DNA of 64,000 bases, taken from the human T2T-CHM13v2.0 reference genome, Homo sapiens. The notes beneath the pieces are model-generated. The model worked only from the letters and a program-made list of their open reading frames with translations, had not been told where the DNA came from and searched no databases. Where the stretch lies: the NCBI RefSeq assembly GCF_009914755.1, contig NC_060935.1; one strand, written 5' to 3'. Shown here one piece after another: positions 10,131 to 64,000 of this stretch (positions are counted from its first letter, which is position 1; each line of letters begins with the position of its first letter). Made by a program: the position numbers and the translations under genes.

Positions 10131-11859
10131 GGAGTAAAGGGGAAGAAAACCTGAATAGATTGCGTTTAAGAGAGAATGAGAGCAGAGAAATTGGAGACAG
10201 TGAGTATACACAACTCTTTTAACCAGTTTTCTTTAAAGAAATCAGATAAATGGAATTAAAGTTAGAAAGCATAATATTGGTTGTTTCATGTGTTTGTTTT
10301 TAAGATAACCTTATCCTGAATATTATATTTTTTATAATATAAAAATATTATATCCCAAAAATCTGTAATTTCATTTTCTTTATTGAAAGAGTAAAAACTA
10401 TATGCAGAGTAGAGACAGATAAAAATATGGGTACCTATAAGTCACTGGGTTCATCGGTAAAAAATTTAACATTGTAAGGGATTGAATTCCTTTGGAATAA
10501 TTTTATTCTTAATTTAGCCAAGGTTGAAATTGACCAAAATGTAGCCTGCAAATTGACAATCAAAGTGGAGACTCAGCAGTGATTAGCCAGGTTGATTTTA
10601 CTCTTAGTAAACATTGTCAGCTTAGGGATAATACTATAATAATTTGGTGGCCAAGCTATGAAATTTTGATCATTTAAGACTTCACATTTAATTTAAGAAT
10701 TATGCTTGGAAGAATCACAAAATAGAGGGCTAAAAGTAACTTTGAAGAGGATTTAATTTAACGTGCATGTTTTATTAATTGGTAACTCGAACCCTGAAAA
10801 TTAAAATGACATGCCTGAAGTCACAAAGCCAGCCAAGACTAGAACTCAGAACTCAGTTCTTATGATACCCAGAAAAAGGGCCCATTCTAATGTCTCAGGT
10901 TCATTCCAATCTTGGATGATACCCTATTGATGCCTAACAGCAGCCACACATGTATCAATATACATGGCAATTTTTCATAAAAAATAAACATTTAAAAATG
11001 TGCTGATTTAGCTGGTAAATACTGAAGTCCACATCTTCTATTGCTTGCCCCTTCAGTCTGCAGCTGAAATAAGGAATTAATGGCCAGGGGCTCTCAGTTT
11101 CATTCAGTATGTACATATAGATCATCTTCTGTATGCCAAGAGGCATCTAAGAGGAATATGAGGAATTTTGTACTTTCTTAGGGCTTATGTCACCTGAGGA
11201 CAGGAGAAGGAAGAAGGGGACTGGAAATTATGGGTACAGATTGCACCTTCATGTGCAATCCCTCCTGAATCTCACCACAGTTAGGTGGAATAGGGATAGT
11301 CATTCCCTTTTCATAGATAAGGAAACTGAGATTAAGCAAGGTTAATGGAGTTGCTCAACATCAAAGCTTTCCAATACAAACCTTACTGAATGTAGGGATC
11401 ATGCAATTTCCAGGCTTACTCAATGGGGAACTGGAGCCTAATACTCTATAAGGTCAGGGTAGGGGACTCTCCTCTGGGAAACTATGGTTTGGAGGAAATA
11501 AAAAGAAAGGGTGAAGAAAGAATTATCATACAACAGAAGATTCAGTATCTTGAATGTGTCTTCACTTAGTAGTCCAAAAAAGGAGTGATACGATGTCTTC
11601 TGCCTGCCTGAGTAGAGTGGGAGAAAGAGGGAATGGAAAGGCCTGACAGTTACTCGGTGGGATTGTTTCTATCCTAGAAACTGTGAACTAATTTTCATGA
11701 TGCCACAAAATTGCATAGACATTTTTAAAGAAGTTGGTGATGAATTTTACACTGAGAAACCTAGAATGTGGCGACATTGCTCTATCTTTGGAAAAGTTAG
11801 ATTTCAGTAACATGAAGAGAAATGGATTCAAATAAATGAACTTCAAATTCAGTAGTGGA

Positions 11860-12100
11860 AAACAGACTGGATTCAGAATCAACATTACCTAGATTTTGGT
11901 CCTACCTTTGCCACTTACTAGCCCTGGGACAAACGGCAAGTCACTTAAGCAGGACTCTGAGTCCTAGTTTCTTCATCTTTAAACTGGATATTAATGATAA
12001 GTTCTGCCTCACATAGTCCTTGAGAAGAACAAATAAGATAATGCATATAAAAGTGGTTTAAAAAGTCTTCAGTGTCATACAAATCTTAGTTATCATTCTT
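11860..12100 (+). mobile_element. MIR
   Basis: MIR core ctttgccacttactagc...gcaagtcacttaa..ctctgagtcctagtttcttcatctttaaactgga. Confidence 0.75.
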
Positions 12101-12902
12101 ATATGCATTCTTACATTTTTTATTTCAATAATCTGGGGATTACAGGTGGTTTTTGGTGACATGGATGAGTACTTTCCTGGTGATTTCTGAGATTTTAGTG
12201 TATGCATCATCTGAGCAGTGTAGACTGTACCCAGTATGTAGTCTTATGTCCCTTACCCCTCTCTTAACCTCTCACCACCAGGTCCCTAAAGTCCATTATA
12301 TCACTCTATATGTCTTTGTGTCCTCATAGCTTAACTCCCACTTATAAGTGAGAACATACAGTATTTGGTTTTTCCTTCTTGAGTTACTTCACTTAGAATA
12401 AAGAAGTAATAATGAAGAATAATCTGGGGATTACAGGTGGTTCAGGTGGTTTTTGGTTACATGGATGAGTACTTTCCTGGTGTTTTCTGAGATTTTAGTG
12501 CATGCATCACCTGAGCAGTGTAGACTGTACCCAGTATGTAGTCTTATGTCCCTTACACCTCTCTTAACCTCTCACCACCAAGTCCCTAAAGTCCATTATG
12601 TCATTCTATATTTCTTTGTGTCCTCATAGCTTAACTCCCACTTATCAGTGAGAACATACAGTATTTGGTTTTTCATTCTTATTTCACTTAGAATAATGAA
12701 GTGAAATGAGTTACTCTAAGTGAAAAAACTCAAGAATGAAAAACAAAATACTGTATGTTCTCACTTATAAGTGGGAGTTTCACTTAGAATAATGAAGTGA
12801 AATAACTCAAGAATGAAAAACCAAATACTGTATGTTCTCACTTATAAGTGGGAGTCAAGCTATGAGGACACAAAGACATATAGAGAGATATAATGGACTT
12901 AG

Positions 12903-13200
12903 GACATGGATGAAGCTGGAAACCATCATTCTCAGCAAACTCGCAATGACAAAAAACCAAACACCGCATGTTCTCACTCATAGGTGGGAAGTGAACAATG
13001 AGAACACTTGGACACAGGAAGGGGAACATAACACACCGGGGCCTGTTGCGGGCTTGGGGGAAGGAGGAGGGATAGCATTAGGAAATATACCTAATGTAAA
13101 TGATGAGTTAATGGGTGCAGCACACCAACATGGCACATGTGTACATATGTAACAAACCTGCATGTTGTGCACATGTACCCTGGGACTTAAAGTATAATAA
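12903..13200 (+). mobile_element. Short 5'-truncated L1PA4/5-like 3' end inserted in L1PB #1
   Basis: gacatggatgaagctggaaacc...ttaaagtataataa; host sequence agaataatga occurs on both sides (12690-12699 and 13594-13603). Confidence 0.93.
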
Positions 13201-13545
13201 ATATATATATATATATATACACACACATATATATACATATATATATATACACATATATATACATATATATATACACATATATACACATATATATACACGT
13301 GTATATATATACACGTGTATATATATACACACACATGTATATATATACACACATGTGTATATATATACATGTATATATATACACGTATATATATACATGT
13401 GTATATATATATACACGTATATATATACATGTGTATATATATATACACGTATATATATACATGTGTATATATATATACACGTATATATATACATGTGTAT
13501 ATATATATACACGTATATATATACATGTGTATATATATATACACG

Positions 13546-13592
<47 letters not shown>
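13200..13592 (+). repeat. (TA)-derived alternating purine/pyrimidine minisatellite with a 32-bp higher-order unit
   Basis: Unit acacgtatatatatacatgtgtatatatatat starts at 13381, 13413, 13445, 13477, 13509 and (partial) 13541. Confidence 0.95.
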
Positions 13593-13596
<4 letters not shown>

Positions 13597-15641
13597 AATA
13601 ATGACCTCCAGCTCCATCCAAGTTGCTGCAAAAGCCATTATTTCATTTCTTTTTACAACTGAGTATTATTTCAGGATGTATATATACCACATTTCCTTTA
13701 TTCAATGGTTGGTTGATGGGCACTTAGATTGGTTCCATATCTTCGCAATTGTGAATTTTGCTGCTATAAACATGCATGAGCATGTGTCTTTTTCATATAA
13801 TGACTTCTTTTCCTTTGGGTGGATACTCACCAATGGGAATGCTGGATTGAATGGTAGATCTACTTTTAGTTCTATAAGGAATCTCCATACTGTTTTCATA
13901 GTGGTTATACTAATTTACATTCACACCAGCAGTGTAAAAGTGTTTCCTTTCACCACATCCCTGCCAACATCTATTGTTCTTTTTTTTTTTTTTGGCTTTT
14001 TAATTACAGCCATTCTTGCAGGAGTAAGGTGATATCTCATTATGGTTTTAATTTGCATTTCCTTGATTATTAGTAATGTTGACCATTTTTCATATTTGTT
14101 GGCTGTCTGTATATCCTCTTGTGAGAAATTTCTATTCATGCCCTTTGCCCACTTTTTGATGGGGTTATTTGTTCATTTCTTGCTGATTTGAATTCCTTGT
14201 TGATTCTAGATACTAGTCCTTTGTCAGATGTGTAGCTTGGGAATATTTTCACACACTCCATGGATTGTCTATTTACTGATTATTTCTTTTGCTGTGCAGC
14301 AGTGTTTTGGTTTAATTAGGTCCCATTTATTTATTTTTATTTTTGTTGCATTTGCTTTTAGGGGCTTAGTCATGAATTCTTTGCCTAGGCCAATATCTAG
14401 AAGAGTTTTTCTAATGTTATCTTCTAGGAATTTTATGGTTTCAGTCCTTATATTTAAGTTTTTGATCCACCTTGAGTTGATTTTTGTATAAGGTGAGAAA
14501 TAAGGATCCAGTTTCATTCTTCTATATGTGGCTTGCCAGTCTTCTCAGCACCATTTATTGAATAGGGTGCCCTTTCCTCAGTTGATGTTTTTGTATGTTT
14601 TGTTGAAGAGCAGTGGCTCTAAGTATTTGGCTTTGTTTCTGGGCTCTCTATTCTGTTCCATTAGTCTATGTGCCTATATTTATACTGGTACCATACTGTT
14701 TTGGTAAGTATAGTCTTGCAGTATAGTTTGAAGTTGGATAAGGTGATGCCTCCAGATTTGTTCTTTTTGCTTAGTCTTGCTTTGGCTATGTGGGCTCTTT
14801 TTGGTTCCATATGAATTTTAGGATTGTTCTTTCTAGTTCTGTGAAAAATGATGATGGTATTTTGATGGAAATCACATTGAGTCTAGATTGCTTTTGACAG
14901 TATGGTCATTTTCACCATGTTGCTGCTTCCTATCTATGAGCATGGGATGTGTTTCCATTTGTTTGTGTCACTTACAATTTCCTTCAGTAGTGTTTAGTGT
15001 TGTCTAGTTTTCCTTATAGCACTCTTTTAACTCCCTGGGTAAGTGTATTTGTAGATATTTAATTTTGTTTGCAGCTGTAGTAAAACACATTATGTTCTTG
15101 ATTTGATTGTCATCTTGCTTTTTGTTGGTGTATAGCAATGCTATTGATTCATGTACCTTGATTTTGTAGCCTGAGACTTTACTGAATTAATGTATCAGAT
15201 CTAGGAGCCCTTTGGATGAGTCTTTAGGGTTTTCTAATTATATGTTCATATCATTAGTGAACAGCGACAGTTTGACTTACTCTTTTCCAATTTGGATGCC
15301 CTTTTTTTTTCTCTTGTCTAATTCCTCCAACTAGGACTTCCAGTACTATGTTGAATAGAAGTGATAAAAGTGGGCATCCTTGTCTTCTTGCAGTTTTCAA
15401 TAGGAATGCTTTCAAATTTTCCCCATCCAGCATAATGTGGGCTACAGATTTGTCAAAATATGGTTTTTATTACTTTGATGTAAGTCCCTTTTATGCCAAT
15501 TTTGTTGAGGATTTTTTATCATAAAGAGATGCTGGATTTTATCAAATGCTTTTCTGCATCTATTGAGATGATCATATGGTTTTTATTTTTAATTCTGCTT
15601 ATGTGATGTATCACATTTACTGATTTGTGTGTGTTAAATCA

Positions 15642-29209: not shown

Positions 29210-33043
<3,834 letters not shown>

Positions 33044-34284
33044 ACAATGAGATCACATGGACACAGGAAGGGGAATATCACACTCTGGGGACTGTGGTGG
33101 GGTGGGGGGAGGGGGGAGGGATAGCACTGGGAGATATACCTAATGCTAGATGACGAGTTAGTGGGTGCAGCACACCAGCATGGCACATGTATACGTATGT
33201 AACTAACCTGCACAATGTGTACATGTACCCTAAAACTTAAAGTATAATAAAAAATAAATAAAATAAATAAATAAATAAAATAAAAAAAAACAAAACAATC
33301 CCATCAAAAAGTGGGCTAAGGACATTAATAGACAATTCTCAAAAGATTTATAAACGGCCAACAAACACATGAAAAAAATGCTTAACATCACTAATGATCA
33401 GGGATATGCAAATCAAAACCACAATGAGATACCACCTTACTTTTGCAAGAATGGCCAAAATCAAAAAATCAAAAGACAGTAGATGTTGGCATGGATGTAG
33501 CAATCGGGGAACACTGCTACACTGCTGGTAGGAATGTAAACTAGTACAGCAGCTATGGAAAACAGTGTGGAGATTCTGCAAATAACTAAAAGTAGAACTA
33601 TCATTTGACCCAGCAATCCCACTACTGGGTATCTACCCAGAGGAAAAGAAGTCATTATTTAAAGTAGATACTTGCACACGCATGTTTATAGCAGCACAAT
33701 TCACAATAGCAAAATCGTGGAACCAACCCAAATGCCCATTAAGCAATGAGTGGATAAAGAAACTGTGGTATATCTATACAATGGAATACTAAGCCATAAA
33801 AAGGAATGAATTAACAGCATTTGCAATGACCTGGATGAGATTGTAGACTATTATTCTAAGTGCAGTAACTCAGGAATGGAAAACCAAACATCGTATGTTC
33901 TCACTGATATGTGAGAGCTAAGCTATGAAGACGCAAAGGCATAAGAATGATACAATGGACTTTGGGGACTTGGGGGGAAAGATGGGAGGGAGGCAAGGGA
34001 TAAAAGACAACATATATGGTGCAGTATATACTGCTCGGGTGATGCGTGCACCAGGATCTCACAAATCACCACTAAAGAACTTACTCATGTAACCAAATAC
34101 CACCTGTACACCCAATAATTTATGGAAAAATGAAATAATAAAAATAAAAATATTGTCATAAAAAAAGAATGTGGGCTATTCTTAATGAAAATATGCATAA
34201 GCATACCATCAGTGTGTTGAATCTGGAATACAGGGTTGCCTTACTTGATTATATACTCCTGGCTCCTTAAAAACTTAAACTTTC

Positions 34285-54620: not shown

Positions 54621-54920
54621 AAGAAAAACCAAACACCGCATATTCTCACTCATCGGTGGGAATTAAACAATGAGATCACATGGACACAGGAAGGGGAATA
54701 TCACACTCTGGGGACTGTTGTGGGGTGGGTGAGTGGGGAGGGATAGCACTGGGAGACATACCTAATGCTAGATGACGAGTTATTGGGTGCAGTGCACCAG
54801 CATGACACATGTATACATATGTAACTAACCTGCACAATGTGCACATGTACCCTAAAACTTAAAGTTAATAAAAAAAAAAGAAAACAATGCAAAGTAAAAA
54901 AAAAAAAAAAAAAAAAGAAA
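54621..54920 (+). mobile_element. Short 5'-truncated L1PA2/3 3' end with a split poly(A)
   Basis: Near-identical to 33000-33245; tail A10-gaaaacaatgcaaagt-A21. Confidence 0.93.
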
Positions 54921-63817: not shown

Positions 63818-64000
63818 AAAGGGGAACATCACACACAGGGGCCTGTTGTGGTGTGGGGGGAGGGGGGGAGGGATAGCATTAGGAGATATACCTAATGTAA
63901 ATGACAAGTTAATGGGTGCAGCACACCAACATGGCACATGTATCCATATGTAACAAACCTGCATGTTGTGCACATGTACCCTAGAACTTAAAGTATAATT
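63818..64000 (+). mobile_element. Very short 5'-truncated L1PA4/5-like 3' end, running off the window
   Basis: aaggggaacatcacacacaggggcctgttg...ctagaacttaaagtataat. Confidence 0.93.

What the first reader, a model, noticed from the sequence alone, without database searches (positions are those of the whole stretch)
12127..12910. Complex templated 5' junction of an L1PA insertion: ~275-bp tandem duplication plus two fold-back inversions
Seen: L1PB 3'UTR 12127-12401 is repeated at 12418-12699. The copies share unusual variants and differ by about 12 substitutions and two indels by eye. A hairpin (atttcactt-agaataatg-aagtgaaat) follows, then an inverted copy of the preceding ~65 bp (12716-12779), a re-start (ttcacttagaataatga), and a longer inverted copy (about 12796-12904). 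This joins the L1PA through a ttagga(c)/tagggac microhomology. Every round ends at the same host site (cacttagaataa), which is also the target site duplicated after the L1PA tail (13594-13603). Inference: repeated snap-back and template-switch synthesis from the free target end (Pol-theta/MMBIR-like) occurred during resolution of one retrotransposition event, adding about 500 bp of locally templated DNA.
Basis: partly seen in the sequence, partly recalled or inferred. Interest (0 to 1): 0.7.

Follow-up and report, generated by a model that had tools for sequence, protein, structure and literature searches.

The report
Jumping-gene insertion scar copied from flank
Next to a short LINE-1 jumping-gene copy lie about 500 bases that duplicate and invert the neighbouring DNA, likely written while the cut chromosome end was being rejoined during that one insertion; this is a rare but already described kind of insertion scar, here unusually elaborate and with no sign of function.

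Summary
The structure is real. An antisense old-L1 3' end is interrupted at an L1 endonuclease-type site (TT/AGAA) by a 297-bp L1PA with a 9-10 bp target-site duplication (TSD). Between the left TSD and the L1PA lie 497 bp copied from the left flank: short fillers, a 278-bp-template direct duplication, two hairpins whose loop is the TSD, and inverted copies of 64 and 106 bp. The four copies diverge star-like, 15 changes in 706 bp (2.1%), near the age of the L1PA's relatives. One derived base is shared by all new long copies but not the original, as serial re-copying of new DNA would give. Controls: 25 other insertions at the same paralogous site and 22 related L1PA ends show no flank-derived inversion. 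Fold-back and templated 5' junctions of L1 are published at about 0.3-0.6% of somatic insertions. Best reading: one retrotransposition event with iterative synthesis from the free target end. Enzyme and synthesis direction are not determined; primate orthologues were unavailable. A new, extreme member of a known kind.

The parts
12110..12394 (-). Host old-L1 3' end (L1PB-like, name recalled), left of the break; copy 1 = 12127-12404
   Evidence: 84% to best paralogues, T-rich tail at 12110-12126
12395..12404 (+). Left TSD copy (one T>A change at 12402); TT/AGAA endonuclease-type site at 12394/12395
   Evidence: same site used by other insertions
12405..12423 (+). Filler: short fold-back (3-5 nt) plus two partial re-copies of the TSD (12408-12415, 12416-12423)
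12418..12699 (+). Copy 2: direct copy of 12127-12404, entered through 6-bp microhomology AATAAT (only occurrence in 11400-12394)
12681..12707 (.). Hairpin 1: 9-bp perfect stem, loop = TSD 9-mer, apex at the nick base
12708..12715 (+). 8-bp direct copy of host 12381-12388 keeping the ancestral C
12716..12779 (-). Inverted copy 1 (template 12396 to 12333)
12778..12803 (+). Restart and hairpin 2, identical to 12682-12707
12795..12900 (-). Inverted copy 2 (template 12394 to 12289), running into the L1PA at a shared 7-bp word
12902..13198 (+). 5'-truncated L1PA 3' end (L1PA5-like by recall, not tested against a library)
   Evidence: 93-94% to best relatives
13193..13593 (+). (TA)n-type microsatellite in place of the poly(A) tail
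13595..13604 (+). Right TSD copy; host L1 resumes at 13605

Best explanation
A 5'-truncated L1PA sits in an endonuclease-type site of an older antisense L1, and the 497 bp between its left target-site duplication and its 5' end are copies of the left flank, likely written in the same insertion event by repeated priming and template switching from the free top-strand target end. Inferred order: (1) staggered nicks at 12394 and 9-10 nt downstream leave a 3' overhang equal to the TSD; (2) the end makes short fold-back and TSD re-copies; (3) it re-primes at the nearest 6-bp microhomology and copies back to the break (copy 2), likely with one C>T error; (4) it folds back at the nick base and copies the new strand twice (inversions 1 and 2, both inheriting the T), with short returns to the original template; (5) it anneals imperfectly to the cDNA end at a 7-bp shared word and the gap is closed. 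The segments, their templates and the variant pattern are shown; order, direction and enzyme (ORF2p or a repair polymerase such as polymerase theta) are inferred.
For: Segment map and junction microhomologies. All three direct rounds stop at the TSD end and both perfect hairpins have the TSD as loop and the nick base as apex, positions defined only by the TPRT intermediate. Private changes: copy 1 5, copy 2 6, inversions 2 and 2; 15 of 706 bp, 2.1% (CI 1.2-3.5), against 2.0% non-CpG mean distance of 29 L1PA relatives from their column majority and 5.8% between them. Position 12387 is C in copy 1 and 20 of 20 relatives, T in copy 2 and both inversions, C again in the 8-bp direct piece. TSD is short (9-10) against 13-19 bp in 15 of 17 scored insertions at the same paralogous site; short TSDs are enriched in 5'-truncated L1 (PMC2912911). 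Top-strand nicking during first-strand synthesis (PMC7617806) makes the primer available. Published de novo cases.
Against: The L1PA differs from its relatives' majority at 12 of 284 non-CpG sites (4.2%), twice the copies' rate; Fisher p 0.083, compatible with a younger duplication. Copy 2 has a 5-bp gap and 4 substitutions that inversion 2 lacks, so these must post-date the event. The T at 12387 could instead be a host variant that reverted in copy 1. Copying the TSD part in direct orientation needs a template across the first nick (re-synapsed right end or a replicated end), which is assumed. The junction does not keep the 7-bp word intact.
Confidence: 0.6

Rival explanations
1. Same single event, opposite direction: the cDNA 3' end invaded the left flank and was extended to the nick, then across the end (template jump or a hairpin-sealed end) onto the top strand, several times, before annealing to the overhang.
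For: Read on the bottom strand, tracts run off at the nick base and continue with the complement of the overhang. cDNA-end priming on nearby DNA is the model cited and the 'snap-back' class of R2 junctions (PMC11371274); hairpin sealing of ORF2p ends is proposed in PMC11702581.
Against: Three separate tracts copied from the original bottom strand would each need the derived T, while the 8-bp piece keeps C; one error does not explain this.
Confidence: 0.25
2. Two events: a plain L1PA insertion, then a later break or fork collapse at its 5' junction repaired by MMBIR or theta-mediated end joining.
For: L1PA looks up to twice as diverged as the copies (p 0.083). Inverted-repeat and TA-rich DNA can be fragile (recalled).
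Against: A later break would not know both nick positions; the TSD end recurs at 12404, 12699 and 12795 and partial TSD re-copies at 12408-12423. 8 of the L1PA's 14 differences occur in 3 or more relatives (relatives were picked for similarity, so this is biased).
Confidence: 0.13
3. Independent L1 fragments side by side, twin priming of the L1PA, or an assembly artefact.
For: All pieces are L1-derived, and host and L1PA 3' ends are about 80% alike.
Against: Copies are 95-96% alike and share 13 host-specific columns, against 84% for the best paralogue; inverted pieces are 96% to the host and 82% to the L1PA; 12 substitutions between copies exclude a collapsed or duplicated read.
Confidence: 0.02

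Closest known systems
L1 insertions with fold-back inversion of the 5' target flank (Nam et al. 2023, PMC10191854; passages read)
   Same: Inverted duplication directly upstream of the target site; 64 and 106 bp lie in their 52-220 bp range; attributed to extra synthesis at resolution.
   Different: Those were somatic, 3 cases (0.3%) plus 1 with twin priming; here a fixed old germline copy with two inversions, a long direct duplication and about eight switches.
Templated L1 insertions (Zumalave et al., bioRxiv 10.1101/2024.08.27.596794; section 4 read)
   Same: Local genomic template next to the site copied into the insertion (22 cases in a set of 3,598 truncated L1s).
   Different: Templates there are typically under 250 bp and modelled as cDNA invasion; here 278 bp plus inversions, total 497 bp.
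Reciprocal-end rearrangements in induced-L1 clones (Mendez-Dorantes et al., PMC11702581; passages and sections 7, 13 read)
   Same: 3 insertions with genomic inversions at the reciprocal end and 3 with nearby templated DNA.
   Different: Cell culture; their figures S9-S10 were not seen and may hold equally complex cases.
Flank-derived 5' extra nucleotides of LINEs (PMC4245944, passages) and polymerase theta / SD-MMEJ templated insertions (search listing only)
   Same: Short microhomologies, local templates, iterative priming.
   Different: Such inserts are usually a few to tens of bases (recalled); enzyme not testable here.

Membership tests
TPRT-made L1 insertion | Endonuclease-type site | tested here: met
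   TT/AGAA at 12394/5; the same site holds Alu or L1 insertions in 25 of 31 distinct loci examined
TPRT-made L1 insertion | Target-site duplication | tested here: met
   9-10 bp, 12395-12404 (1 mismatch) and 13595-13604
TPRT-made L1 insertion | 3' poly(A) tail | tested here: inconclusive
   Tail position is a 400-bp TA microsatellite
TPRT-made L1 insertion | Subfamily assignment | not testable with these tools
   No repeat library; L1PA5-like and L1PB-like are recalled labels
L1 with target-site fold-back inversion (Nam 2023) | Inverted duplicate of the 5' flank abutting the site, 52-220 bp | tested here: met
   64 and 106 bp
L1 with target-site fold-back inversion (Nam 2023) | Arises with the insertion | tested here: inconclusive
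   Geometry and divergence agree; no orthologues available
Templated L1 insertion (Zumalave 2024) | Template adjacent to the site (within 15 bp) | tested here: met
   All templates touch the break
Templated L1 insertion (Zumalave 2024) | Template typically under 250 bp | tested here: not met
   Copy 2 template is 278 bp; the paper gives this as typical, not as a limit
Twin-priming 5' inversion | Inverted piece derives from the inserting RNA | tested here: not met
   96% to host copy 1, 82% over 57 bp to the L1PA
Polymerase theta / MMBIR scar | Microhomology at switches and local templates | tested here: met
   1-7 bp at most switches
Polymerase theta / MMBIR scar | Snap-back on resected DNA at the best nearby microhomology | tested here: inconclusive
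   First filler fits a 3-bp snap-back; both full hairpins use 1 bp at the nick base although a 4-5 bp site lies about 17 nt upstream
Polymerase theta / MMBIR scar | Dependence on the enzyme | not testable with these tools
   Fossil sequence only

The most novel reading that the evidence does not exclude
The locus is a readable log of one TPRT resolution: hairpin apexes mark both ORF2p nicks on an unresected end, and one inherited copying error orders about eight template switches, pointing to ORF2p itself (hairpin priming, template jumping, untemplated addition) writing 500 bp of flank-derived DNA into the ape germline.
Probability: 0.2. Interest if true: 0.55.

Novelty: new member of a known kind. 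Interest (0 to 1): 0.28.

Why it matters
How the 5' end of an L1 is joined is still unsettled. Published fold-back and templated junctions are a handful of somatic or cell-culture cases. This one suggests such events reach the germline and persist, and that variant inheritance among the copies can order the steps; a genome-wide screen of fixed L1PA 5' ends could supply many more cases. The locus itself has no annotated gene or element nearby and no sign of function.

Tried and rejected
Site-intrinsic fold-back hotspot: rejected. Of 30 loci fetched of 33 pattern matches, 5 were not the host site, 1 had no left host within reach, 23 were resolved at once and 1 after a longer fetch; one more L1 came (3 matches, 2 already held). 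Of these 25 (20 Alu, 5 L1), none has a flank-derived inversion; 1 (L073) has short direct repeats upstream. The pre-event end has no stable hairpin (z +1.05 and -0.30). Homeology idea (incoming L1PA is about 78% alike to the host across the break and ends about 30 nt past the equivalent position): not supported, the 5 control L1s end elsewhere with simple junctions; small sample. Background: 0 of 22 L1PA relatives with an alignment end inside the locus (of 29; some ends may be internal inversion points) show flank-derived copies; the single self-hit, L016, is a second L1. Literature searches gave nothing; searches listed no paper on this locus or on a comparable fixed germline case, but the library is partial and I did not search by coordinates. 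Earlier scan findings were not available.

Full report
Observation. The window carries an old L1 3' end on the minus strand from about 12110; its best paralogues in the genome are 84% identical and it resumes at 13595-13605. It is interrupted at CACTT/AGAATAATGA. On the right the 10-mer follows a 400-bp TA microsatellite that ends a 297-bp plus-strand L1PA piece (12902-13198; 93-94% to its best relatives). On the left the 10-mer (one change) is followed by 497 bp that all map to the left flank: a 19-bp filler, copy 2 (12418-12699), a hairpin, an 8-bp direct piece, inversion 1 (12716-12779), a restart identical over 26 bp to the first hairpin, and inversion 2 (12795-12900). The hairpin junction occurs nowhere else in the genome.

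Common origin and age. Against 20 relatives, copies 1 and 2 share 13 non-majority columns and differ at 12 sites. Private substitutions are 5, 6, 2 and 2 for copy 1, copy 2 and the two inversions: 15 in 706 bp, 2.1% (CI 1.2-3.5). I left out 12714, read as part of the 8-bp direct piece, and the two 1-bp losses at the L1PA junction. The L1PA has 14 of 294 differences from the column majority of 29 relatives, 12 of 284 outside CpG columns; the difference from the copies is not significant (p 0.083) but leans towards a younger duplication. The relatives average 2.0% (non-CpG) from that majority and 5.8% from each other; they are best hits, so these figures are biased low. By recalled primate substitution rates 2% per lineage is roughly the ape ancestor.

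Geometry. TT/AGAA is an endonuclease-type site (the TTCT/A motif is named), and it is really used: 25 other insertions were resolved at the same position of paralogous hosts, mostly with 13-19 bp TSDs and simple 5' junctions. Here each direct round stops at the TSD end, and both full hairpins have the TSD as loop and the nick base as apex. A 4-bp snap-back site (5 bp with the terminal A) about 17 nt upstream was not used by them. Copy 2 starts at the only AATAAT in the kilobase upstream. Inversion 2 meets the L1PA where both donors carry TAGGGAC; the junction lacks one T and one G of the host version, so it is an imperfect anneal or a join with one untemplated base. These positions are those of the TPRT intermediate, the main argument for a single event.

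Order of synthesis. One site is informative: 12387 is C in copy 1 and 20 of 20 relatives, T in copy 2, both hairpin arms and both inversions, and C in the 8-bp direct piece. One error in copy 2, inherited by everything folded back on it, explains this if synthesis ran from the target top strand. The reverse direction, from the cDNA end round the break, fits the run-off geometry as well but needs the T three times. Reversion in copy 1 is possible but needs a parallel change at 12714. Inversion 2 lacks copy 2's other changes, which must then be later mutations. This is one site; the inference is moderate.

Known work. Nam et al. (PMC10191854, passages) report fold-back inversions upstream of the target in 3 (0.3%) somatic L1 insertions plus 1 with twin priming, 52-220 bp. 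Zumalave et al. (section 4) report 22 templated insertions, typically under 250 bp and within 15 bp. Mendez-Dorantes et al. (passages, sections 7 and 13) report 3 plus 3 such cases; their supplementary figures were not seen and may bear on how unusual this one is. Flank-derived extra nucleotides (PMC4245944), short TSDs of truncated L1 (PMC2912911), ORF2p hairpin priming, DNA-templated synthesis and template jumping (PMC10830420), R2 snap-back junctions (PMC11371274), early top-strand nicking (PMC7617806) and suppression of homeologous cDNA recombination (PMC13526784) were read as passages only. Polymerase theta papers were seen as a search listing.

Verdict. A real, old, neutral-looking scar; a new and unusually elaborate member of a described class. 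Interest 0.28.

Noticed in passing
L073 (G000:C5:174188561-174191583), about 250-150 bp upstream of the Alu tail: At the same paralogous site, a truncated Alu is preceded by about five imperfect direct re-copies of a 16-bp host stretch ending at the cut site, and the right flank has a short deletion; possibly a smaller iterative-synthesis scar.
   Followed up: partly
L055-L087: The CACTT/AGAATAAT position in antisense old-L1 3' ends is a recurrently used insertion site: 33 poly(A)-adjacent matches genome-wide against 0 for the reversed control pattern; 25 of 31 distinct loci examined were resolved insertions.
   Followed up: partly
window 12902-13010 vs 12317-12394 and 13595-13623: The L1PA landed head-to-head at nearly the homologous position of the older L1, about 78% alike across the break; a long homeologous join was available but not used.
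   Followed up: yes
window 13193-13593: The L1PA tail has become a 400-bp TA/CA microsatellite with a 32-bp higher-order unit; likely length-variable.
   Followed up: no
L089 (G000:C5:138066500-138074400): The L1 at the paralogous site contains two 1.27-kb L1 3' segments 88% alike, probably a nested L1.
   Followed up: no
L083, about 350 bp upstream of the Alu tail: Alu preceded by a long poly(A) run, with no left host sequence within 1.5 kb.
   Followed up: no
window 33851-34136, 189-487, 32949-33260, 54624-54872, 63819-63999: Other L1 3' ends in the window, 78-91% to the host or the L1PA; none is the donor of the copies.
   Followed up: partly
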